DNA of 64,000 bases from Pelagomonas calceolata (lineage: Eukaryota), in the NCBI GenBank assembly GCA_918797485.1, contig CAKKNE010000004.1, forward strand, positions 930,001 to 994,000. The letters run 5' to 3'. The notes under the pieces are model-generated. The model ran no database searches. It was not told where the DNA came from and worked only from the letters and a program-made list of their open reading frames with translations. Position 1 is the stretch's first letter; each line of letters opens with the position of its first letter. Positions 30,096 to 43,479 of the stretch are shown here, piece after piece. The position numbers were made by a program, and so were the translations under genes.

Positions 30096-31935
30096 TCACA
30101 CTTTAGGTTCCTCTAGTAGAGGTTTTCGCTCCTCGTCATCATTCGTGCCGCACGCGTCCCTTCCAAATGAGAGGACGCCGTCGCGGAGGAACGGCAGGCC
30201 GGCCACGATGAGTAGCGGCGACGTGAGCGAGAGCGCCAAAACGACGAGCCAGACGGTACGCGGGTCTGGAGCGGTATCAGTAAACCCTGGACACGCCGGA
30301 CAGGCCGCCGGGCAGCTAGGACTCAGCGCCGCCGCGCAGGTCCCACCGGCGGCCGACACGCACGCGTCACCGGCGGCGACGGCGCAGAATCGCCCGAGCT
30401 CGTCCCGGCAACCTGGACAGTTCGGATTGAACTCGCGGTTCAGCCAGCCCACGAGCACGGTGGACGGCCAGGCGAGGAAGAGGTCCTTCAGAGAGGCAAG
30501 CGCCAAGAACAGCCCTTCCCGGCCCGGCGGCGCGAGACTCACGGCCCAGGCCTGCTGGCGCGGACTCCACAGCACCTCGCCGGCCGTGAGCCAGGCTTCC
30601 CAGACGACAGCACCCGGCGCCGTCGGCGAGACGATCATCGCAATCGGAGACGTGGCCATGATCCACACGCCCGGCACGATGATTCTAAAGGCCTCGGAAT
30701 CAGAGGTGAACGCAGCAACAATAGGTGGCAGCAAGAAGCACCTGTGTGGAAATCAACCAGTGCGTCGGGTGCACCCGATAATTCTTTCGCATCGAGCAGG
30801 CGTCGCGTCGATGGCGAACGCGCCGTAAAATTTGATTCCACACAGAAAGCACCCCCACATACCGACGCTGTGCACGAGGAAGATGCCCCCGCCCTCGCCG
30901 AATTGTCTCTCCAGAAAGGGAGGCAGCAGTTGATCCACCTGCGTGGAAATCAAATTTCGGGCGCCCCACGCCATCGACGCGAGATGCCCACGTAACCGCG
31001 TCTGGTCGCAACCTAACTCACTGGTTGATTTCCACACAGGTCGCGACCTCGGTCCACTGCTTCGCGACGCCGAAGACAGCCAGCGACATCGCGACGACGC
31101 GCCAGATCTCCCGCGTGCGCAGCGTCGCCGCCACGTCGCTCCACTTGGCCGAGGGGCGCCCGCCCGCGTGGCTCGCGACGACGCGGAGAGTGGCCGCCTG
31201 GCGCGCGGCTTCTCGGGTTTGCCACGCGCGCCACGCTGTCAGGGAATAGCTCGTCGGTGGCGGCGCCGACGCCACGGGGCTGCCGTCGTCGGCCTCGACG
31301 ACGCTCTCGTCGCGGAGGTGGAGCGCGACCAAGAGCCACGACGCGCAGACGACGACGAAGGTGAGCACGAGGAACTGGCGCGTGGGCGTATAGACCTCGC
31401 CGAAGAGTAATGCGTCGCCGCGGCGGCGGAACGCGTCGATGCAGACGTCCGCGAGCGCTCCGGAGAGATTAAATGTTGCATATTCGACAGCAAACGCAAA
31501 GGCGCGCGTCTTGGGCGTCGTCAGCTTCTTCAGAGCGACGCGGTAGAGGCCCGTGGCGAGTAAAGCTTCCCCCGCCGGCGAGAAGAGATAGAACGCCGCG
31601 TGGATCGCCGTCCGAGACCGACCGAACGCGAGGAGCCCGCGACCGACGACGGACACGCTCAGCGCCGTCAGCGCGACGCGCCGTACCCCTACGGCGTCCG
31701 TCAGCACCGCGCCGATGAGTCCAAAAGCGACGTGCAGCGAGGCGGAAGTGCCCAGCACGCTCGCGGCCTCGAGGTCGTCGTGGCCGAACTCGTTCGTCAG
31801 GTAGAGCTGCTGGACGAATCGTAAGCCAAAACTACGGAAGGAGTTGAGGAACACGAGTAGCAGCACGAGCCGCACCGAGTTCGGCAATGCCGTGAACGCA
31901 ACCACATTATCGCGGAACTTGGCAGCAGCTGTCAT
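30096..31935 (-). CDS. MFS transporter (POT/PTR-like); introns 30939-31047 and 30742-30852
   Basis: Many TM helices, GAVLTDAVGVRR (motif A). Removing the two introner introns gives 1620 nt in frame. Confidence 0.85.
30742..30845 (-). mobile_element. TIR introner element
   Basis: CTGTGTGGAAATCAA...TTTGATTCCACACAG; flanks GTGCTTT / GTGCTTCT on the minus strand. Confidence 0.9.
30939..31039 (+). mobile_element. TIR introner element, inverted relative to host gene
   Basis: CTGCGTGGAAATCAA...TTGATTTCCACACAG; GT donor exactly 8 nt outside the element, but the two flanks no longer match well. Confidence 0.88.
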
Positions 31936-32447
31936 TGATCAAGATCCTCCCGTGTCCGGCGCGAACAGGCCGCGTCGCGCCGCGGAAGGCGCGGGAGCCG
32001 CCGGTGCAGGGCTGTGGTCGCAGCCTTTGCTTGCGGCGTACACGCAATAATAGATCTCCGTAGTGCGCTGTACGCAGAGAGATATGGTACTCCTTTAGTC
32101 GTGCACCAGCGCGTTGGGAGTCACGTCGCGCTGCCGCGCCGTGAGGTGGTCCAAATAGCCGCTGCCAGCTGCAGCTTTTTGGAGAGCGACAGCTTTGCAA
32201 AAAAGCCGACGCTGGCTCGCAGAGAGACTTCAGCGCTGCAGCATTGATCGATTCGTGCACGCACACGACGAACGCACCGCAGAACGCAAGCACGGGTCGC
32301 TGGCAAGCAGTGCAGCCACTTGCAGCAGCACCGCCTTGCACAGACTGCAGCCGCTTAACTGCGGCAGAGCGCCGCACGCCATCGACGCGTCACAAGGCCG
32401 TCGTACAGTTGCGCAAGCCGTCGCCGCGCCAAAAACAAAAACGCCAA

Positions 32448-33728
32448 ATGCCCTGGCGCCGCCCGCCGCGCGTCGAGGACGATGCAGCCTTACCAAAGAC
32501 GGACGCCGCCGGACGACCGTTCGCGGACGACCACCAGGCGGCGCGCTACGCCTTGAGTAGAGATGCGTTGCGCGCGCGCGAGGCCCGGCGCGCATCGGAA
32601 AGTATAGAGGTCGATGCCGTGCAAGAGCGCGCCCCGGACGGCGCCTACGTCAACGATGAGACGCCGCGCATCTACCTCATGGTCGACGATAGAGGGAAAG
32701 CCGCCAAATTACTGGCACTGCTCAACGACGAACAAACGTGCAAAGCGTACTTCCCGTCCTTGACGCACGCGGGAGCGGTCTGCGCGCCGCGCGCGCCCTC
32801 CGAGAAGCGGGCGAAGGGTTGTCGAAGGACGGCCTGGGTCGCTCTACGGAATGCGGCGCTCGGAGCCGTGAGAGGTGCGATTGATCAGTCGCCGGCGCCG
32901 ATCGAAACGCATCTCGTGCAGCGCGCGCTGTACGGGGACGTCGACGTCTCAAAAGGTGCGGCGGAGGACGGCGCCGTCGCGGCCGTTGTAGTAGAGCTGT
33001 GCCGTCACGGAGGGCCCCTGAAGGTCGCGGTGCGCGCCCAGCCCCGCGCGCTCGAGAAGCGCATCATTCGAGCGCTGCCGGCGTGGTGCGCGCTCGAGCC
33101 CCAGTCCTATGATCTAGCTGTCCACGCCTTTTCAGATGACCAGCTCGGGACACGGATCGCGCTCGTGCCAAAGCGCGACGAGTGGCTCGCGACAAAGGAC
33201 GCGGACAAGGGCGAATTTACCAGAGCGGCGGGCAAGTTACGGGAGATCCTCGACTGTCGCATGGTGGACTTTCCTCCCGGGAGTCACGTGGTGGACGTCG
33301 GCGCGGCACCTGGAGGGTGGACGTTTGAATTGGCACAGCGGGGCATTAGAGTGGCCGCCGTGGACCCCGCAGAACTGCGAGACGATGTCGCAAAGCACCC
33401 GCTCGTGACGCATTTCCGACAGAAAGTGGAAGACTTTTCCTGTTCTCATGAGTTGGGCGGGCTGGTCTGCGATATTAACAGCGCGCCGTCCACGCTACTG
33501 GAGATCCTGGAACCCTTGGTCCGAAAGCTCGCCAAGGGTTCATCAATTGTGCTGACGCTGAAGTTCGGGGGAAGAGGGCACGACGGCGAGAGCGATCGCC
33601 GGAAAAGAGTTGCTGCTGCCGAAGTTTTGAGGGACTTGGAGGAGATCGCTCCTCTGGCATCGTCGCGGTTTTGCTGGCTCGTGGCAAATACGGACCGGGA
33701 GCGGACATTAGTGTGTCGCTTGAAGTAA
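32448..33728 (+). CDS. FtsJ/RlmM-like RNA 2'-O-methyltransferase
   Basis: TRAAGKLREI, VVDVGAAPGGWT, VAAVDPA, LVCD, LTLK. Confidence 0.85.
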   Translation: MPWRRPPRVEDDAALPKTDAAGRPFADDHQAARYALSRDALRAREARRASESIEVDAVQERAPDGAYVNDETPRIYLMVDDRGKAAKLLALLNDEQTCKAYFPSLTHAGAVCAPRAPSEKRAKGCRRTAWVALRNAALGAVRGAIDQSPAPIETHLVQRALYGDVDVSKGAAEDGAVAAVVVELCRHGGPLKVAVRAQPRALEKRIIRALPAWCALEPQSYDLAVHAFSDDQLGTRIALVPKRDEWLATKDADKGEFTRAAGKLREILDCRMVDFPPGSHVVDVGAAPGGWTFELAQRGIRVAAVDPAELRDDVAKHPLVTHFRQKVEDFSCSHELGGLVCDINSAPSTLLEILEPLVRKLAKGSSIVLTLKFGGRGHDGESDRRKRVAAAEVLRDLEEIAPLASSRFCWLVANTDRERTLVCRLK

Positions 33729-33940: not shown

Positions 33941-34654
33941 ATGATGCGGTCGGCTGCGCTTCTGTGCGTGGCGAGTCTATTACCAGCCGTGGCTGGCATC
34001 GCGATGGACGATAACACCATCAGGACGGCCGTCACGGAGTGGCTCTCGGACGCGAGCGCCGCCGAGGCGACGTACGGCCACATTTCTACGTGGGAGACTG
34101 GGGGGGTGACGGACATGTCGAAGTTGTTCTACTTGATGGCTTTCAACGACGACGTCGGCGCGTGGGACACCTCAGGCGTAACGAGCATGTCCGGCATGTT
34201 CATGAGCAGCACGTTTAACCAGGACATCGGCGCGTGGGACACCTCGGCCGTCAGAACGATGGACTATATGTTCTACTACGCTTCGTCGTTCAACCGACCG
34301 ATCGGCGACTGGATTGTTGACAGCATTACGGACATGAGATACATGTTCTGGTACGCCTCGGCCTTCGACCAGGACCTCGGCTGGTGCGTGGCCGACGACG
34401 TGGACCTGCGCTACGCGTTCCGCAACACCCCGTGCGAGCCGACGTATTGCGGCGTCACGCGCAAAAACGAATTCGACGAGTGCGAAGCCATCGTCGACGA
34501 CGACGCTTACGACATCTTCGTCGTCGACGACGACAAGGACGACGATGACGACTACGACGATGATGACGACTGCGGATATGGATCCTTGTGCAACGATGCC
34601 GCCACGACCCGCTCCGCCGCCCTCGCCGCCCTCGTCATCGGCGCCGCGCTCTAG
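33941..34654 (+). CDS. DUF285/BspA-like surface repeat protein
   Basis: Signal peptide, repeats of FNxDIGAWDTSxVxxMxxMF, acidic tract and hydrophobic C-terminus (possible GPI signal). Confidence 0.88.
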   Translation: MMRSAALLCVASLLPAVAGIAMDDNTIRTAVTEWLSDASAAEATYGHISTWETGGVTDMSKLFYLMAFNDDVGAWDTSGVTSMSGMFMSSTFNQDIGAWDTSAVRTMDYMFYYASSFNRPIGDWIVDSITDMRYMFWYASAFDQDLGWCVADDVDLRYAFRNTPCEPTYCGVTRKNEFDECEAIVDDDAYDIFVVDDDKDDDDDYDDDDDCGYGSLCNDAATTRSAALAALVIGAAL

Positions 34655-34937: not shown

Positions 34938-37900
34938 TCAAGGGGACGCCTCGCGCAGGATGCGCCGCGAATACGAGGTCTGCTGGTTCTTCTGCGTCAT
35001 CGTCCGCAGGTCGGCGACGTACTTGCCACCAGACAATTGCACCAGCGACCGCTCCTGGACCAAGGCCTGCTCCAGCGTACTCGCCGCTTTTTCATCAAAC
35101 GGGACCCAGTAGGGCGGCCGCACGACGGGGTGCTGGGAAATCCTCTCGGGCGTTTCTTCCCAATACCACGTGACCCGCGTCGGATCGAAGATGAACCGCG
35201 GCTTCTGGACCGCGGGCGGCCGCGGTAAATCCCCAGCGCCGACGACGGCCACGACGGAGCCGACGGGACCGACGGGCGAGTGCTTCGGCGAGCGCCAGCT
35301 CCCGTCCTGGACGCGGCGCTCGTCGTGCACGGGCGTCCGCATCGCCCGCCGCCGGTTGATCGTGTCCTCCCTCGATCGTAGTTTATCGGTGGTCTCCTTC
35401 CACTTGTGGAAGAAGGTCTGCACGTCTAGACTATCGGCGCCGTGCAATTCAAACACCGTCTCGAGCCGCACGATGCCCTCCTGCACGCGCTTCTCGGCCT
35501 TCTTGAAATGCGACAGCTCCGACGACTCGTCCTCGTGGAACTGGCCCAGGAACCAGGCCGTGGCGAAGAGCCCGGCGTAGAATAGTAGTAGTAAAAAGTT
35601 GAGCCAAAACAAGCCACTATGGAAGCCGGCCCGCTCCCAGATGATCTTGGACTGGAACACGGGTGGCGCCGGATTCACGAAACTAATAATGATCTGGACC
35701 ACAAAAAACGAAGGGACCATGATCCTTCTCGCCGCTCTATCCAAGGCGTTCGTCTCGAGCCCGGCGAACATGAGGTTGAAGAGCCAGAAGGTCCAGTCGT
35801 CGGCCTTCGACCTTCTCCTGATTTTACTCTGGGCGGCCTTGACCCTTATAAAAAATTTCTCGTCGCCACCGGCCGCCTGCTGCTGCCGGTAGTCCCTCGA
35901 GCTCTTCACCAACAATATAAACGCCAGGAACTGATACACTAACATGATCACGAAGTACCAGTCCAGCCACGTGAAGACCTTCGTGACCTTGGCTTCGTAC
36001 ATCATAAATTGCGCGGCCAAAATAGTGGTAATAGCAACCGCGCTGCGATCAATGCCCGCCCCTTCGGCCCGGATCCAGAAGACCGTGAAACCCAATAAAT
36101 TGAAGGCCCAGCCCACCAATACATAACTCATAACCGCGAACTGCGAGTTCCGCTCGATCCGGAAGCGGAACTTGACGGTCTTGCCCGAGGGGTGGGAGCC
36201 CACCTTGACCGGTGCGTCGCCGCCGTCGCCGTCCCAGCCCTCGCAGCCCTCGATCCTCCCCACGATGTGCCCATCCCTAATATCTATCTCGGATTCGGAC
36301 TCGGCCACGGTCACGTCCAGGGAACACGTGTGGACGTCGTAGGGATAGTTTCTGAGGTTTGAGTCCGTGTCGCAGCCGTACTCGCCGACCGTCCGGAAGG
36401 AATATTTAACGCTACCGTCCGGTTTCACCTCCGCGGGCAACCTTTTAATAAGTTGCAGGCCCTCCGGCGTCTGGAGGTTGTGGATGTACATCTCTGGGAC
36501 CCATATGCGATCGATGTCGACCCTTATGGGTCCCTCGAAGACGTTACTGTCATATTTCAGTCGTGTGTCGACCCACTCCAGGTCGACCCACGCCGTCGCG
36601 GAGAAGGACCCGCCCGCCGTGTCCATGGTTTGAATTTCCAACTCTCTCACCGAAGCGGTGACGGGCAGGGGCGAGTCGTCGTCGGTCTTCGCCGCCACCG
36701 TAGCCTGGTAGGACGTGTGGTGGATCAGCGCGTCCACGGTGAAGCCCTCGGCGTCGGCGTACTGGCAGGACGTCTCCGTCTCCGTCGTCGTCTCCTCGTA
36801 GAACGCGCAGTCCGCCTCCACGTCCGCGACCGCGGCGTCCCAGGCGTCGACGCCGGTCTCGGCCGCGAGCGCGACCGCGGCGTCCGTGTACGGCTCGAGG
36901 TCGGCGGTGCATTTTTCCCACAGGTTCTCGCCCGTCGTTTCCGCGAAGTAGGCCTTGAGGTCGTCCGTCGTGTCGATCGGGTCGCCGGCGGCGGCCGCCG
37001 CGTCGACCGCGTCCAGGACGTTCTGCACCGCGCGCCACAGGCCCGCCCCCGCGACGCCGACGTACTGGTCGGCGGACGCCACCATGAAGTCGTCGTCTAA
37101 CAAATGCTCCTCGACCCTATCAAAGCCGGCGATCATCAGCTTGGCCGCGCCCTCCCAACTGAGCGTCTCGTCGATGGCCTTTCGCGCGCCCAGGAGCATC
37201 CGGTCGTTGGCCGCCAGGATCGTCGTGATGGACGGGTCGTGGATCAGCGCCTTCTTCGTCAGCTCGTAGGCCAGGTCCTGGTCGAACCTGGCCCGGGCCT
37301 CGGTCGTCTTCGTGATCTTCGCCTCGCAGTTCTTCCAGAGCCACTCGAGCTGCGCGTCGACCCGGATGTCGAACGCCGGCTGGTCGTTGCCGTAGAGCTT
37401 CAGCACGCGGTGCTCGACGCCCCGGCCGAAGCGGCGGCACGTCTCGGCGGCCACGAGCTGCGCCGCGGTCTCCACGTCGGGCGTGAAGGTCCAGTAGAAG
37501 TTCTTCGAGGTGTCGTTGTTCGTGGGAGGGCTCGCGCCGTAGACGAAGAGCACGGTCGCATTTTGGCCCAACAAGTAGTCGTACATGTCGATGCCCACGC
37601 CCGCGCGCGCCGCGCCGACGACGACGACGTCGCTCAAGTCGACACCGTCCTCCTCGATTTTGTCCCGTATGTCGTCCGGGACCATGCAGCCCAGCGGCAG
37701 GGCTCGATCGTGGAAGTCCTCCGCGAGCGCGCCGGAGGCCTTGAGCGCGCCGAGGTCGGCGGCGCAGTTGGCCGTGAGGGTCGGGTCGACCATCTTGAAC
37801 GACCGCTTGTATTCCCCCTTGAAGGTCTCGTTGAACGCGTGGCGCACGGGGCCCCAGTAGTCCTGGAGGTAGTCGTCGCCTGCGCGGGATGTGCGGTCTC

Positions 37901-38106
37901 TCGCGCGTGCTCTCTCGCATCGACGGTGGCGGTGTCTCGGCGCGGCGCCGCCCCGACGCCATCGGCGCGCACGCGTCGCATCGACGCCACTCGCCACGCC
38001 ACTCGAGCGCTTCCGACGCCGCGCCCGCGCCGGGGAAGATGCCGTAGAGGCGCCTTGCTTGGATTATTGGCATGCAGCACGCGAGCGCCCAGAGCGGGGC
38101 GCGCAT
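34938..38106 (-). CDS. Pentameric ligand-gated (Cys-loop) ion channel with N-terminal periplasmic-binding-protein domain and C-terminal WWE domain; GC-AG intron 37880-37994
   Basis: Signal peptide; PBP1-like ILAANDRMLLGA...IAGFD; LBD WVDTRL, IWVPEM, C..NYPYDVHTC; M1-M4; WWE-like WYWEE...WVPFD...YVADLRTMTQKN..T.YSRRILR. Confidence 0.85.
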
Positions 38107-38350: not shown

Positions 38351-39124
38351 CTACACGACGACGCTCCCGCGCTTCGACCCCCTTACTTCAAGCTCGAGCG
38401 CCGCCGGCTTGCGCAGGGCCTCGGCCTTCGCCGCGGCGCGCGACCCGAGGGACGCCTCGAGTGCGGCGAATTGCGCCGCGACCGTTGCCGCGTCGAGGCC
38501 GAGGAGCTGCGGCGCGCCGAGGACCAGCGTGCGAAGGTCGCCGTCGGCGAAGTCGTAGTCGCTCCGAAGCATGTCAAACGTCGGCGCCACGTCGAGGTCG
38601 TAGCGCAGGCCTAGCGCTTGCGGCAGGCGCAGGATCACTTTCTTTCTCAGCGTCACGTCGTCGAGGGCTAGATTCTTTTGTAAAGCATCTGCGGCCGCTC
38701 TCACGCGCGCCGCGGAGTAGCTCAGGACCTCGGGCACGCGCCTCGCTATTCGCTTGATCTCCGCATCCCCGAGGCCTAGGCTTCGGAGCCCGTCGCATCG
38801 GTTTTCAAACTCTGAGGTCACCTCGGCGTATCTTGCTTCCAGGTTCTCTTTATCGTCGTCGTCGGCCTCCGGATCCTTGACTGCGTACTGGTAGGTCTGG
38901 CGCGTCGCGCGCGGCGACGCGGCGACCACGCGTGCCTCGATGTCCGATGCCTCATCGACATCAATCTCGAACGTGCGCTCGCAGAAGTCCGCAATGGCGC
39001 CCTTTAGAGCTAATTGACGATTGCTGCCGGCGTTTAGAGCTAATTGACGATTGCTGCCGGCGTTTAGGGCGCTGAAGGCTGCAGCACCAGAGGCAATGCT
39101 TAGCAATAGCCTTGCTGATTGCAT
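38351..39124 (-). CDS. Plastid-targeted mTERF-like protein
   Basis: AAA-FS presequence; repeats IARRVPEVLSYS, VILRLPQALGL, LVLGAPQLLGL. Confidence 0.8.
   Translation of the reverse strand: MQSARLLLSIASGAAAFSALNAGSNRQLALNAGSNRQLALKGAIADFCERTFEIDVDEASDIEARVVAASPRATRQTYQYAVKDPEADDDDKENLEARYAEVTSEFENRCDGLRSLGLGDAEIKRIARRVPEVLSYSAARVRAAADALQKNLALDDVTLRKKVILRLPQALGLRYDLDVAPTFDMLRSDYDFADGDLRTLVLGAPQLLGLDAATVAAQFAALEASLGSRAAAKAEALRKPAALELEVRGSKRGSVVV
39003..39067. repeat. Perfect 30-bp tandem duplication in transit peptide
   Basis: TTTAGAGCTAATTGACGATTGCTGCCGGCG twice (LNAGSNRQLA x2). Confidence 0.9.
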
Positions 39125-39239
39125 CTTTGCGGGCTGGTGGTTGCGGCGGCGATTGATGGCGGCCTTTGGTGTTTGCTCGGTTGCAGCTGTGCTTATTGGC
39201 AGCACGTGTGGGCAAAAAAACGGGCACGCTCTCCCAAGG

Positions 39240-39261
39240 CTAGCGGAGTGTAAGACACTAG
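39240..39261 (-). promoter_or_regulatory. CTAG-bounded intergenic motif
   Basis: CTAGCGGAGTGTAAGACACTAG in a divergent gap. Confidence 0.7.
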
Positions 39262-39334
39262 AAAGCACAGCGCAAAAACGCCAGCAGCGCATCTGCTGCA
39301 CAAAGATTCTGTTTTCGAGTGCCATTTATCGTAA

Positions 39335-39781: not shown

Positions 39782-40286
39782 GGGGGTGAGTTGTGGAAGT
39801 CGACCCGCGGCCCGCGGTGGCGGCCTCGTGGGGGACCTGTGGCTGGTAAGGCGTTTGGTACGTTTCCTAAGACTCGTCCGTCCGCCCCCCGGGATGGTTC
39901 CTCATAGCATTCGCGCGGGTCGAATTGCTCTGGCTGGCCAAGTCCGTAATCTGCAAAACGCCCTCACGACGTCCAATTGTCCTCATTAACCCCGCGCGCG
40001 CTTGTGAACACTCTCGGCGCCTTACTTTTACGCCTCACGCAGAAATTCGTGCAACTCGGCCGCTCGTAAGCGTCCAAAACTGCCTCCAGTGCATCACTAC
40101 CACCTTCACGGCATTTTCACGGCGTCAGTTGTATTTCTATATTGCGCGGGAGCACGTGCGGTACGCCCAAACTACTGCGTCGCGCTCAATTCGAAAATCG
40201 ATGGTCGCGGTCGTGAAACCGGACGCGGGCCCGATCCGGTCCGATCGTACGATTTATACCACTCGTGTACCACAGGCCCCATCATC

Positions 40287-41120
40287 ATGTCCAAGTCCAT
40301 TATTGCCCTCGCGCTACTCGCCGCCTCGTCGACGGCCCTTCTCGATGTCCACAAGCAGAGCAATCTGCGCCGCCGCCTCGGCAAAGGAAAGTACGGCGGC
40401 GGCAAGTCGGGCTCCAAGTCGGGATCCAAATCTGGCTACGAAGACGAAGACGAGGATGCGGACTGCTCGTGCGACACGGTGTACGAGGAACTCGAGCTCT
40501 GCAAGGAGAACAGCGAAGCCTGCCAGGACGAGCTCGAACAGTGCACCGAGCAGATCCAGATAAATCAGAAGGAGTGCGATGAGACGAAGGAGAACCTCGA
40601 GGGCCAGATCGCGCAGCTCACGGAGCAGCTCGACGCCTGCGAAGCCGATACCGCGTCCCAAACGGAGACGATCGTCAAGCTCCAGACGCAGATCACCGAG
40701 CTCCAGTCGGCGCTGGACGCCTGCACCAAGGAGAGCGTGGGCCTCGCCGACGAGCTGAAGGCCTGCCAGGCGAACCACGGCGACTCCTCTGGCAAGATCA
40801 ACGAGCTCGAGACGGCGCTCAAGGCCTGCAACGAGGACCGGGAGAAGGCCGCTCAGACAATCGCGACGCTCGAAGCGGATGCTAAGGCGGCCGCGAAGCA
40901 GATCGCCGACTACCAGGCCAAGGTCGCGAGCCTCGAAGCCGCGCTCGCGAAGGCGAGCGTCGACGCCGTCGTGGCCTCCGAGAAGACGGCTGCCTCGTCA
41001 GTCGAAGCTTCCGCGATCGCCTTAGAAGCGACAAAGCTCATACTGGCGCGCGCGGAGTCGCTCGAGGCGTCGCGCAAGGCCGAATCGCTCGACGGCTTCA
41101 CGCCCGAGCCGGCCAAGTAG
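40287..41120 (+). CDS. Secreted coiled-coil protein with heptad-spaced cysteines
   Basis: Signal peptide, RRRL, (KSGS)n, long heptad repeat. Confidence 0.8.
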   Translation: MSKSIIALALLAASSTALLDVHKQSNLRRRLGKGKYGGGKSGSKSGSKSGYEDEDEDADCSCDTVYEELELCKENSEACQDELEQCTEQIQINQKECDETKENLEGQIAQLTEQLDACEADTASQTETIVKLQTQITELQSALDACTKESVGLADELKACQANHGDSSGKINELETALKACNEDREKAAQTIATLEADAKAAAKQIADYQAKVASLEAALAKASVDAVVASEKTAASSVEASAIALEATKLILARAESLEASRKAESLDGFTPEPAK

Positions 41121-41215: not shown

Positions 41216-43151
41216 TTAGCTATCATCCACGTCCTTCTGAAAGACTCGCTCAAGGAACGCCGAATTCGTGACGCCGGCCGGCCGCTCATCCGCTATAGAT
41301 GGAGGCAGCTCCGCCCGCACCAAGTCGACGCCGTCGAACGCGTCCAACATCTCCCGCAGCGCGTCGAAGTCAGCATCATCCCCTACGGAAGTACATGTCC
41401 CCCGGGACGCCTGGCCGACGCGGCCCGCCCGGCCCGCCACATGCGCGTACGTCGCAGGACCGCCCTCCGTAACATCACCAACTCGATACACATGACTGAC
41501 GTTCGGGAAGTCGAGACCGCGCGCAGCGGACGGCACCGTCACGAGCACGGTCGCGCCGTCTCGTGCCGCGACCTCTGCAAACGAATCGTCCGTCGCCGAC
41601 GCGCGCGCCATGCTGCCGGCCGCGACCGTCGGGGAGCCGCCCTCCGTCGGGAGGAGGGCGGCGACGGCGTGGGCGCCCCATAGCGACGTTCTCAGCTGCC
41701 TTGCTAACGCGTCGGCCGACGTCTCGTTGGCGGCGAAGACCACGGCCCTCGGTCTCGGGCCTTGACCGGACTCCTCCCACTCCCTCAAATCCCGCCTCAG
41801 ACACCGCGCCAAGATGAGCGGCCTTTTCCACTCGGGAACGTCGAGGAACTCGTGTCTTACGGAAGAGGGCGTTCGTATCTTTTCCTGGGTCAGGGAGAAG
41901 GGCTCAGTGCCACTCTCCGTGGCCTTCGTGGCCGTGCCGTTTCTCAGTAAAGAACTCGCGTCGGTTAACGTGGCGCCCACTAACACACGAGGCACCTTTG
42001 CCAAGCCCAGCGTCTCGAGGATATCTGCGGAGACATCACCACAAGCGTCGGCCTCGTCCACACAAACTAATTTGATATGTGACGTGTCCATGAGGTCCGG
42101 CGCCTCCTTCAACGCGTCTCGCAGCGTAGCAGCGTCGGCGACCAGCACGTCGCAGTCCGCCAAGTCATCAGGTAACGTCGACGAGGGCGTAAAGGTCCCC
42201 CCATAGTCGTCGTACCCGAAATCATCGGTCTTCTCCACGACGATCCGCCTTTCCTTGGCCGCGGCGACGGCTCTGTCCAAATCCGCGTCCGACGCGAGAG
42301 CCGCGACCCGACAGCCCTTCGGGCCCTTGTAGGCGAAGAGTGAGGAAGCGTCGCCGGGGAAGTAGCTGCCTTGGTTCCTATTGGTCCCGCCGACCTGTGT
42401 GGAAATCTTCGCGTCGACCTCCACGCCATCGATCCGACGCCGGCTCGATGGCGTGGCGATGCCGGTTCCTCACCACTGGTTGATTTCCACACAGGTCGAC
42501 TACGATCGTAAAACACGCCGTTCCCAATTGAAGAGCTAAGGCGCGCGACGGACACAACACCAACGCCAAAGGTGCTCCTCGAGGATCCCCAAACCGCGGC
42601 GGCCGGAAGCCTTCCAAATTCTGCGCGCTCGTCCACAGGGCTGGACTGAAGGTCGCCATCGCCGCTTGTGGAGTTAACAAGCCGAGATTGCTGCCCGCGT
42701 CGAGCTGCGTGCGTTCCCGTTCCGCGAGCTTCGTGTCGAGCACCGCGAGGAGAGGTGCGAGAAAGGCCAACGTCTTGCCGCTGCCTGTGGGTGCCGAGAC
42801 GACGACATCTGTCGAGCCGTCGACGGCATCTAACGCAGCTTCTTGCACCGGTGTGGGGAACCTCATCCCTAGGTCTTGCAGTCGCGCTTGCAGCCAGCCG
42901 GGCGCGCCTCGCGACGCCCAATCTCCAGACTTCGTCGTCGCACCGCCGTTGATCGCTTCTAGTTTCTTCTTCAACTCTGCTGCTTTACGGAAGTCCTCCT
43001 GCTGCACGGCGGCGTTCAATTGGGTCATGAGAGCGTTCACGTCGTCGGCGGCGGCGGCTCTGACGGGCGCGAGGCTCTGAACATGGCGTGGTGGCCGCTG
43101 GAAGGCGCGCGTTTGTAGTATTATCGCAACGACGAGGGCTGGTCGATGCAT
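41216..43151 (-). CDS. Plastid-targeted DEAD-box RNA helicase with N-terminal UVR motif; intron about 42395-42503
   Basis: PTPVQ, APTGSGKT, VDEAD, ARGLDF, HVAGRAGR; EDFRKAAELK is UVR-like. Confidence 0.88.
42395..42494 (+). mobile_element. TIR introner element, inverted relative to host gene
   Basis: CTGTGTGGAAATC...GATTTCCACACAG; interior GCTCGATGGCGTGGCGATGCCGGTTCCTCACC identical to the copy at 10921. Confidence 0.9.
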
Positions 43152-43479
43152 CGTGCGCGGTCGCTACTATCGATGTGAGTGCTGCTGCTGAGTGTGCAGC
43201 AGAGTGCGCGCGCGGTTACTGCGTTTCAGTGCTTGCGGCGAGGCGTTCGATCTGTGTGTAACGTGTGCACACAGCGCCGTTCGCGTTTGCGCAGCCGTGC
43301 GCGCTTGTGCGTGCTCCAGCTGGCCAAGAGCAAAGAGCAGTCCTCGCCTTTGCAGACGCCTCACGCGGCCGTTGGGACAGCACCGCTCGTCGTAGCCGTC
43401 GAAAACACGTCGCAGCAGTCACGTCGACGACGTATCGAGCCGCGGTATCGCGTGCAGTGCTCTCAGGCTCCGCAACAGC

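What the first reader, a model, noticed from the sequence alone, without database searches (positions are those of the whole stretch)
34938..38106. Cys-loop ion channel with a PBP sensor domain, a fifth TM helix and a WWE tail
Seen: after one intron, a single frame of about 1017 aa encodes a signal peptide, a periplasmic-binding-protein type 1-like region (ILAANDRMLLGA, IAGFD), a pLGIC extracellular domain with a Cys pair 15 residues apart around YPYD (animal receptors have 13), M1-M4, an extra hydrophobic helix GLFWLNFLLLLFYAGLFATAWFL, and a WWE-like domain. Established: pLGICs end extracellularly after M4, some prokaryotic pLGICs carry extra N-terminal sensor domains, and WWE domains occur in ubiquitin/ADP-ribosylation proteins and can bind poly(ADP-ribose). 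Inference: the fifth helix returns the chain to the cytosol. This could be an algal chemosensory channel gated by a sugar-like solute and coupled to ADP-ribose or ubiquitin signalling.
Basis: partly seen in the sequence, partly recalled or inferred. Interest (0 to 1): 0.8.

Follow-up and report, generated by a model that had tools for sequence, protein, structure and literature searches.

The report
Five-helix sugar-sensor channel with WWE tail
An expressed gene of the ocean alga Pelagomonas encodes a relative of nerve-receptor ion channels with a bacterial-type sugar-binding fold at its front, a predicted extra membrane helix and a WWE domain at its end, so it likely opens in response to a dissolved small molecule and may also be tuned by ADP-ribose signals inside the cell.

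Summary
RNA shows one transcript with a 151-nt GC-AG intron. The product is 1005 aa (not ~1017), identical to Pelagomonas calceolata UniRef100_A0A7S4A075. Pfam confirms the pLGIC extracellular domain (1e-18) and WWE (1e-8). The N-terminal domain folds like ribose/glucose-type periplasmic binding proteins and keeps their C-lobe sugar contacts, while the loop-B aromatic of the usual agonist site is missing. The fifth hydrophobic helix follows a canonical M4, is modelled confidently, and occurs in 25 of 26 relatives whose chain runs on past a located M4. PBP+pLGIC+M5 is therefore a wider algal family (Aureococcus, diatoms); this scan noted its PBP fusion before on other DNA (e1-9763033). WWE appears only in the Pelagomonas-type clade. 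It keeps the AMP-pocket residues, and the same WWE subtype lies behind a single TM in a receptor-like PARP and in lectin receptors. The 15-residue Cys loop is a minor insertion; close relatives have 13. PBP-pLGIC fusions (bacteria) and protist Cys-loop receptors are published; I found no report of M5 or WWE on a pLGIC. Ligand, ion, pentamer and ADP-ribose binding are untested. Verdict: new variant of a known kind.

The parts
38031..38106 (-). Exon 1 (aa 1-25 plus 1 nt): likely signal peptide (aa 1-17) and the likely first strand of the PBP domain
   Evidence: RNA joint; homologs P0162, P0172, P0263 have a hydrophobic leader before the same mature start; signal peptide judged by eye
37880..38030 (-). 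151-nt intron, GC donor and AG acceptor, with a 4-nt direct repeat at the boundaries
   Evidence: skip 151, 4 letters fit both sides; only register 38030/37880 gives GC..AG
34938..37879 (-). Exon 2, aa 26-1005 plus stop
36756..37877 (-). Sugar-type (RbsB/LacI-like) periplasmic-binding-protein type I domain, aa ~19-400, starting in exon 1; predicted ligand residues W34, R198, F224, N250, D279, Q297; N-glycosylation sequons at 42, 132, 147
36801..36965 (-). Ala/acidic helical insertion aa 331-385, poorly conserved (20% identity to P0162)
36150..36728 (-). pLGIC extracellular domain aa 410-602, with Y-P-x-D loop, beta9 Trp and pre-M1 Arg602; no loop-B aromatic
36324..36374 (-). Cys loop C528-C544 (15 residues between)
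36078..36146 (-). M1, aa 604-626; Val in place of the 14' Pro
35991..36047 (-). M2, aa 637-655: Arg 0', Leu 9', preceded by Asp -1'
35898..35969 (-). M3, aa 663-686
35679..35744 (-). M4, aa 738-759, with the D-R-x-x-R..P motif also found at the chain end of four-helix pLGIC hits
35547..35615 (-). Extra hydrophobic helix M5, aa 781-803 (predicted transmembrane)
35340..35546 (-). Conserved helical stalk aa 804-872 (predicted cytosolic; 70% identical to P0162)
34953..35168 (-). WWE domain aa 930-1001; W932, Y979, Q988, R997 correspond to the AMP sub-pocket of RNF146/ZAP

Best explanation
This expressed gene encodes a pentameric-ligand-gated-channel subunit of Pelagomonas calceolata whose sugar-type binding-protein domain likely replaces the usual agonist site as the sensor, so that binding of a dissolved monosaccharide- or polyol-like solute would open a probably cation-conducting pore, while a predicted fifth helix would carry the WWE domain into the cytosol, where it likely reads ADP-ribose signals. 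Shown: a single spliced transcript, the domain order, the PBP and pLGIC folds (by model), conservation of M5 across an algal family, and WWE restricted to this clade among the hits. Inferred: extracellular PBP and ECD, membrane crossing by M5, pentamer assembly, closure of the PBP lobes transmitted to the ECD to gate the pore, cation selectivity, and WWE acting as an ADP-ribose-dependent regulator of gating, docking or turnover.
For: Single transcript. PBP fold: the listed Foldseek hits are ribose, glucose/galactose, allose and other sugar-type PBPs plus LuxP. T. maritima RBP F172/N198/D223 (PMC2630998) align directly to F224/N250/D279. In 29 family rows: R198 in 28, aromatic at 224 in 28, N250 in 21, D279 in 24, Q297 in 22. 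Loop-B aromatic in 7 of 30 family members versus 12 of 15 conventional Cys-loop-like hits without a PBP, and in none of the first 15 rows closest to the query. Five of the 7 superfamily-conserved positions of Jaiteh 2016 are kept. M1-M3 is 94% identical to P0162 versus 34% for the linker, WWE 65% and M5 70%. Asp at -1' in 22 of 29. M5: 25 of 26 correctly located relatives with a tail of 25 or more residues have KD19 >= 1.6, whereas all 22 correctly located outside pLGIC hits end within 23 residues of M4. WWE: the Y/Q/R equivalents of RNF146 Y144/Q153/R163 are kept, and Y107 corresponds to Trp as in ZAP (PMC8853533; that position rests on recalled RNF146 sequence). The same WWE subtype follows a single TM in P0272 (ANF_receptor-TM-WWE-PARP) and in P0112/P0270 (C-type lectin-TM-WWE).
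Against: No functional data. The protein itself has no Pfam PBP hit. Its N-lobe has Tyr139 where 20 of 29 relatives have Glu (the Asp89-like contact) and Val161 where 17 have Asn, so the ligand may differ or binding may be weak. The M1 14' Pro and the M2-M3 Pro, conserved in 77% and 88% of pLGICs, are absent. The 15 residues after M5 are net acidic (1 K/R, 4 D/E), against the positive-inside rule, although several relatives are strongly basic there. Jaiteh 2016 warns that the pre-M2 motif does not reliably predict selectivity in protists. AF2 did not fold the WWE (pLDDT <50). Most relatives have M5 but no WWE (0 of 51 LBD-bearing proteins), so WWE is not needed for the family's core function. 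A receptor-PARP was not shown in this species.
Confidence: 0.55

Rival explanations
1. The channel is gated by something else (protons, ions, or a ligand at the ECD interface), and the PBP domain is only an allosteric modulator or ligand concentrator, like the accessory N-terminal domain of DeCLIC.
For: The best PDB sequence matches of the channel part are GLIC, which is proton-gated. DeCLIC's NTD is modulatory (PMC12664993 passages). Tasneem 2004 proposed that fused PBPs concentrate ligand for the LBD. The N-lobe contacts are changed.
Against: The loop-B aromatic is lost in most family members, while the C-lobe sugar contacts are among the most conserved PBP positions.
Confidence: 0.22
2. The protein is a non-conducting or poorly conducting receptor, or an accessory subunit of a heteropentamer, that signals through M5, the helical stalk and the WWE rather than by ion flux.
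For: Two gating-interface prolines are missing. M2 carries Gln, Phe, Met and Tyr at its outer end. The same WWE subtype serves single-pass receptors. Aureococcus has at least two paralogs (P0263, P0264), so heteromers are possible.
Against: Arg 0', Leu 9' (26 of 29 rows, the other 3 being gaps), the pre-M1 Arg/Pro-loop Asp pair and 94-100% M1-M3 identity within the clade are what a working pore predicts.
Confidence: 0.13
3. The channel works as in the best explanation, but the WWE is a lineage-specific passenger or a plain protein-interaction tail with no ADP-ribose role.
For: WWE is limited to the Pelagomonas-type clade. This WWE subtype is shuffled among many proteins (ankyrin, C2, GRDP, lectin). 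The residue matching RNF146 W114 (recalled) is Val.
Against: WWE keeps 65% identity against 34% for the flanking linker, and the AMP-pocket residues are kept in the clade rows.
Confidence: 0.3
4. The fifth hydrophobic helix does not cross the membrane (surface helix, or it replaces a non-inserted M4), leaving a four-helix channel.
For: A predicted fifth TM in Alvinella Alpo2 was ascribed to the MX helix (PMC4801368 passages). M4 here is weakly hydrophobic, and the post-M5 flank is acidic.
Against: The helix lies after, not before, the canonical M4 motif. It has the most favourable insertion score of the segments scored, is conserved in 25 of 26 relatives, and is followed by cytosolic-type domains (WWE here; an IQ-like motif at E=1.5e-4 in Seminavis P0032).
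Confidence: 0.08

Closest known systems
Bacterial PBP-I-fused pLGICs of Magnetospirillum and Bradyrhizobium (Tasneem, Iyer, Jakobsson, Aravind 2004, PMC549065; passages read)
   Same: An N-terminal periplasmic-binding-protein type I domain fused to LBD + TM domain; proposed chemoreceptors; untested.
   Different: Here the gene is eukaryotic and spliced, the PBP is of the ribose/glucose type, the Cys-loop cysteines are present, and there is a fifth helix and a WWE tail. The PBP subtype of the bacterial fusions was not checked.
Protist Cys-loop / Pro-loop receptors (Jaiteh, Taly, Henin 2016, PMC4795631; parts 1-5 of 8 and part of S1 read)
   Same: Stramenopile pLGICs with Cys-loop cysteines, including Aureococcus; F/Y-P-x-D, beta9 Trp, pre-M1 Arg, R0', L9'.
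   Different: That study cut away the domains before the ECD and after M4, so PBP, M5 and tails were not described. This protein lacks the M1 and M2-M3 prolines and has C-x15-C.
DeCLIC (PMC12664993 passages; PMC9897478 listing only)
   Same: A pLGIC with an accessory N-terminal domain; the only one partly characterised according to that paper.
   Different: Its NTD is two calcium-binding lobes, not a sugar PBP; it is bacterial.
GLIC, GABA-A, glycine and nicotinic receptors
   Same: ECD+TMD fold (PDB sequence E~1e-13; Foldseek E~1e-20) and the M4 motif.
   Different: They end after M4 on the outside and have no PBP; the animal receptors use an aromatic box whose loop-B residue is missing here.
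WWE domains of RNF146, Deltex, TRIP12, HUWE1, ZAP/PARP13
   Same: Profile match to RNF146 WWE (E=3e-6); AMP sub-pocket residues kept.
   Different: No E3 or PARP domain in this chain; attached to an ion channel; carries an insertion typical of an algal WWE subtype.
Ionotropic glutamate receptors (recalled; also discussed in the PMC549065 passages)
   Same: PBP-type clamshell domains coupled to an ion channel.
   Different: Tetrameric, with an unrelated pore; an analogy only.

Membership tests
pLGIC (Pro-loop) superfamily | F/Y-P-x-D motif with invariant Pro | tested here: met
   Y537-P538-Y539-D540; Pro in 29 of 29 family rows
pLGIC (Pro-loop) superfamily | Beta-sandwich ECD followed by helices M1-M4 | tested here: met
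   Pfam PF02931 1e-18; AF2 model and Foldseek to nAChR/GABA-A/GlyR, E~1e-20
pLGIC (Pro-loop) superfamily | Pre-M1 Arg, beta9 Trp, M2 R0' and L9' | tested here: met
   R602, W574, R637, L646
pLGIC (Pro-loop) superfamily | M1 14' Pro and M2-M3 Pro (common at 77% and 88%, not invariant) | tested here: not met
   V614 at 14'; no Pro between M2 and M3
pLGIC (Pro-loop) superfamily | Pentameric assembly and gated ion flux | not testable with these tools
   No five-copy model of the full channel was run; needs cryo-EM and electrophysiology
Classical Cys-loop receptors | C-x13-C disulfide loop | tested here: not met
   C-x15-C; nearest relatives have x13, so this is a 2-residue insertion in a homologous loop
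Classical Cys-loop receptors | Aromatic agonist box (loop B tested) | tested here: not met
   No aromatic at +6..+9 after the second Cys; other loops not scored
Classical Cys-loop receptors | Four TM helices and an extracellular C-terminus | tested here: not met
   Conserved fifth hydrophobic helix and a 200-residue tail; topology predicted, not measured
Sugar-type PBP-I (RbsB/LacI family) | Two-lobed alpha/beta fold | tested here: met
   AF2 pLDDT 84.9; Foldseek best E=4.6e-11, TM 0.5-0.66 to sugar SBPs
Sugar-type PBP-I (RbsB/LacI family) | C-lobe and hinge ligand contacts (R141, F164, N190, D215, Q235 in E. coli RBP) | tested here: met
   F224, N250, D279 by direct alignment to tmRBP; R198 and Q297 by conservation and position
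Sugar-type PBP-I (RbsB/LacI family) | N-lobe contacts (N13, F15/F16, D89, R90) | tested here: inconclusive
   Y33/W34 aromatic pair kept; Tyr139 where 20 of 29 have Glu; equivalence to RBP numbering inferred
Sugar-type PBP-I (RbsB/LacI family) | Binds a sugar | not testable with these tools
   Needs a binding assay
ADP-ribose-binding WWE domains | WWE profile match | tested here: met
   PF02825 35.8 bits versus cut-off 21.1
ADP-ribose-binding WWE domains | AMP sub-pocket residues (RNF146 Y107, Y144, Q153, R163) | tested here: met
   Y979, Q988, R997/998 by alignment; W932 for Y107 as in ZAP (the register of this position is recalled)
ADP-ribose-binding WWE domains | Phosphoribose sub-pocket and measured PAR binding | not testable with these tools
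   AF2 did not fold the WWE

The most novel reading that the evidence does not exclude
Pelagophyte algae run a membrane signalling circuit in which receptor-PARPs (Venus-flytrap-TM-WWE-PARP) make ADP-ribose marks that are read by the WWE tail of a five-helix, sugar-gated Cys-loop channel. This would be the first pentameric channel gated through a fused sugar-binding protein and directly regulated by ADP-ribosylation from a cytosolic C-terminus.
Probability: 0.2. Interest if true: 0.9.

Novelty: new variant of a known kind. Interest (0 to 1): 0.66.

Why it matters
No biological role is known for any pLGIC of a unicellular organism (Jaiteh 2016). This family carries its own ligand clue in a sugar-type binding domain that can be expressed and screened alone, which makes that open question directly testable in one of the most abundant ocean eukaryotes. 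A fifth helix breaks the four-helix, outside-C-terminus plan of the superfamily and gives these channels a cytosolic tail that different algae have loaded with different modules. A WWE on an ion channel would link ADP-ribose signalling to membrane excitability. A sugar-gated pLGIC would also be a natural template for biosensors.

Tried and rejected
No whole genome is held, so paralogs and a receptor-PARP in this species could not be searched. Pfam on the protein and on its PBP part alone gave no PBP family; Flavi_NS4A and XPB_C hits are below cut-off and were dismissed. A scan of prokaryote genomes with the close alignment A1 found no relative (24 pattern matches, none confirmed); it used two peptides only and is no evidence of absence. 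A profile search with the family alignment returned only 6 close proteins. The full-length AF2 model did not fold the WWE. VIA-align searches were not obtained. No complex prediction was run: the full pentamer does not fit, and a dimer would pass by likeness to solved pLGICs. The tree (FastTree, 83 sequences, 288 columns, midpoint root, mostly unnamed rows) groups the PBP family apart from conventional Cys-loop-like and Cys-less hits (0.89) but has no reference receptors, so origin and gene transfer were not tested. The idea that C-x15-C is a special feature was rejected. The 1016-aa GT-AG model was rejected by RNA. In Jaiteh's S1 alignment I saw all or part of 7 of 12 Aureococcus entries; none looked like this family, and the other 5 were not seen. 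Metatranscriptome runs X15 and X17 give only short, partly divergent contigs: presence in marine RNA libraries, not expression level. The ESM Atlas PBP-only hits scored 0.88-0.89, which is a lead only. Searching earlier scan notes by sequence and for 'WWE PARP transmembrane receptor alga' found nothing.
Full report
Gene model. The finding is a minus-strand gene. A stop-free frame runs from 37877 to 34941 (979 aa, P0001). An upstream ATG at 38106, with an in-frame stop and no other Met further upstream, opens a 76-nt exon. Removing 38030-37880 (151 nt, GC..AG) gives a 1005-aa protein with no internal stop. RNA confirms this. The skip of 151 nt is the only joint inside the gene in 8 runs laid. 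It is shown by 13, 6 and 6 raw reads in three poly-A runs of one sample, and by contigs in X4, X11, X13 and weakly X15; X17 shows no joint. Contigs of 3168 nt (X11) and 3133 nt (X13) cover the whole coding sequence without a mismatch. Read orientation is opposite to that of the plus-strand neighbour, and coverage is 3'-biased and thin (about 1-12x) over the PBP part. The spliced product equals P0221, labelled by its sources as Pelagomonas calceolata UniRef100_A0A7S4A075 'WWE domain-containing protein'. The NCBI model CAH0373341.1 (1016 aa) uses a 118-nt GT-AG intron that no run showed. So the gene is known to databases, but its UniRef name reflects only the tail.

Domains. Pfam finds Neur_chan_LBD (E=1e-18, aa 410-549) and WWE (E=1.1e-8, aa 930-1001), both above cut-off. 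The channel part matches GLIC by sequence (about 1e-13). An AF2 model (mean pLDDT 79.4, 85-row alignment) matches nicotinic, GABA-A and glycine receptors (about 1e-20). Pfam gives no PBP hit for this protein. The N-terminal 300 residues do match T. maritima ribose-binding protein (3e-5 to 9e-5). The homolog P0005 hits Peripla_BP_4 (1.1e-5). A model of the domain alone (pLDDT 84.9) returns ribose, allose and glucose/galactose binding proteins and LuxP (best E=4.6e-11).

A wider family. A full HMMER search gave 711 proteins at E<=0.001. Of the 150 listed I scanned 54 long ones: 51 have the LBD, 18 of these also hit Peripla_BP_4 (14 above cut-off), and none of the 51 has a WWE. Named members are Aureococcus anophagefferens 'GABA-A receptor' P0263 and P0264, Seminavis robusta P0032 and Entomoneis P0253. 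The Atlas cluster nearest by features (score 0.94) has 63 members, all LBD, 38% Peripla_BP_4; it is eukaryotic, with phylum known for only 3 (Haptophyta commonest). LBD plus WWE in one chain was seen only in the close clade P0001-P0005 and their cluster members (64-84% identity).

Fifth helix. Hydropathy and a summed insertion scale pick aa 782-800 as the most favourable segment. AF2 draws it as a helix at pLDDT 94-95 after M4. M4 is identified by the D-R-x-x-R..P motif, which in four conventional hits (P0121, P0124, P0129, P0143) sits at the chain end. Of 42 family proteins, 9 had no motif match, 2 were mis-located and dropped, 5 end within 12 residues of M4, and 25 of the remaining 26 have a segment with KD19 >= 1.6 after M4. 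Of 36 other pLGIC hits, 12 had no match, 2 were mis-located, and all 22 others end within 23 residues. Against: the first 15 residues after M5 are net acidic here, although several relatives are basic there. A fifth predicted TM in Alvinella Alpo2 was explained by its authors as the MX helix (PMC4801368, passages). That explanation does not fit a helix lying after M4. No TM predictor was available, so the crossing is inferred.

Sensor. PMC2630998 (passages) lists the ribose contacts. tmRBP F172, N198 and D223 align to F224, N250 and D279. Across 29 family rows R198 is kept in 28, an aromatic at 224 in 28, N250 in 21, D279 in 24, Q297 in 22 and W34 in 19. The clade differs in the N-lobe: Tyr139 where 20 of 29 have Glu, and Val161 where 17 have Asn. 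The ligand may thus not be a plain pentose or hexose. Loop B of the classical agonist site has an aromatic in 7 of 30 family members against 12 of 15 conventional Cys-loop-like hits, and none here. All three N-glycosylation sequons lie in the PBP domain, and two of its cysteines are conserved in at least 90% of rows, which fits an outside location (inference).

Pore. Five of the seven positions that Jaiteh 2016 lists as most conserved are kept (Y-P-x-D, beta9 Trp, pre-M1 Arg). The M1 and M2-M3 prolines are not. M2 has Arg 0', Leu 9' and Asp at -1' (22 of 29 rows), which suggests cation selectivity, but the same paper warns that this site is not reliable in protists. M1-M3 is 94-100% identical within the clade. 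The Cys loop has 15 residues; the nearest relatives have 13 and other branches 15 or 16, so this is a small insertion.

WWE. A profile of this WWE subtype matches RNF146 (3e-6), Deltex, TRIP12 and HUWE1. PMC8853533 (passages) names Y107, Y144, Q153 and R163 as the AMP sub-pocket and notes Trp for Y107 in ZAP. Here Y979, Q988 and R997 (or R998) align to the last three, and W932 is the likely Y107 equivalent (register recalled). WWE identity to P0162 is 65% against 34% for the linker. The same subtype (E 1e-15 to 1e-19) lies behind a single TM in P0272, a 1319-aa ANF_receptor-TM-WWE-PARP protein, and in P0112/P0270, C-type lectin-TM-WWE proteins. P0270 carries a repeat also present in this window, which suggests the same lineage. 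This supports a cytosolic WWE and shows that membrane-anchored PARP-type enzymes with this module exist in the collection. It does not show that P. calceolata has one or that they interact.

Mechanism. Most likely, a solute closes the PBP clamshell, the movement passes to the ECD and opens a cation pore, and M5 brings a helical stalk and WWE to the cytosol for regulation by ADP-ribose. The anatomy is shown; every functional step is inferred. I put the whole model at 0.55. The rivals are PBP as modulator (0.22), a non-conducting or accessory subunit (0.13) and a non-crossing M5 (0.08); independently of these, the WWE may have no ADP-ribose role (0.3).

Comparison with print. PBP-I fused to a pLGIC was predicted in alpha-proteobacteria (PMC549065, passages). 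Protist Cys-loop receptors, including Aureococcus, were listed by Jaiteh 2016, who cut off the terminal domains and named their study as future work (parts 1-5 of 8; supplement search and 2 of 201 parts). The diatom survey PMC11085791 (passages) counts pLGICs without architectures. PMC12664993 (passages) calls DeCLIC the only pLGIC with a partly characterised NTD. PMC9481584 (passages) gave genome context only, and bioRxiv 10.64898/2026.10.17.759577 (passages) had nothing relevant. Searches showed no paper, among the rows listed, that describes a eukaryotic sugar-PBP pLGIC, a post-M4 helix family or a WWE-bearing channel. The library lacks most subscription journals.

Verdict. A real, expressed, conserved gene and a new variant of the pLGIC superfamily. 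It is not a classical Cys-loop receptor by strict features, but it likely works like one with an added sensor. Interest 0.66.

Noticed in passing
P0272 (1319 aa) and P0155: A single-pass receptor-like protein: leader, ANF_receptor (Venus flytrap) 329-479, TM ~816, WWE 896-967, PARP catalytic domain 1111-1239. The catalytic His and Tyr motifs are visible and the third position looks hydrophobic, which by recall suggests a mono-ADP-ribosyltransferase. A 'receptor PARP' deserves its own study; two searches found no description.
   Followed up: partly
P0112 / P0270: C-type lectin-TM-WWE receptors with the same WWE subtype; P0270 ends in a repeat shared with window 30921-30998.
   Followed up: partly
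window 37880-38030: GC-AG intron with a 4-nt direct repeat at its ends, reminiscent of introner insertions (recalled; introner-length introns are noted for this species in PMC9481584). The NCBI model mis-splices it.
   Followed up: partly
P0043, P0047, P0049-P0051, P0058, P0063-P0066, P0071, P0084, P0087, P0099: A second clade of long (880-1070 aa) C-x15-C pLGICs with 240-600 residues of N-terminal sequence lacking a PBP Pfam hit and ending at M4; possibly another undescribed sensor domain.
   Followed up: no
P0032 (Seminavis robusta CAB9498257.1): Family member with a 420-residue tail after M5 ending in an IQ-like motif (E=1.5e-4, below cut-off), a possible calmodulin site.
   Followed up: no
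window 33948-34654 (+): Expressed DUF285 (BspA-like) gene; reads from many paralogs pile on it, indicating a large repeat family.
   Followed up: no
window 32145-33728 (+), 38351-39325 (-), 41216-42469 (-), 40008-41120 (+): Neighbours: FtsJ-like methyltransferase, mTERF protein, DEAD-box helicase piece and a coiled-coil protein; no functional link to the channel.
   Followed up: no
window ~30600-31050 and ~42900-43160: Short repeated elements whose translations recur; likely a dispersed repeat or introner family.
   Followed up: no
Jaiteh 2016 S1, Aureococcus F0YCK2: Another Aureococcus pLGIC appears to carry an EF-hand-like sequence in the M3-M4 loop (judged by eye), the usual place for cytosolic modules, in contrast to the post-M5 tail here.
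   Followed up: no
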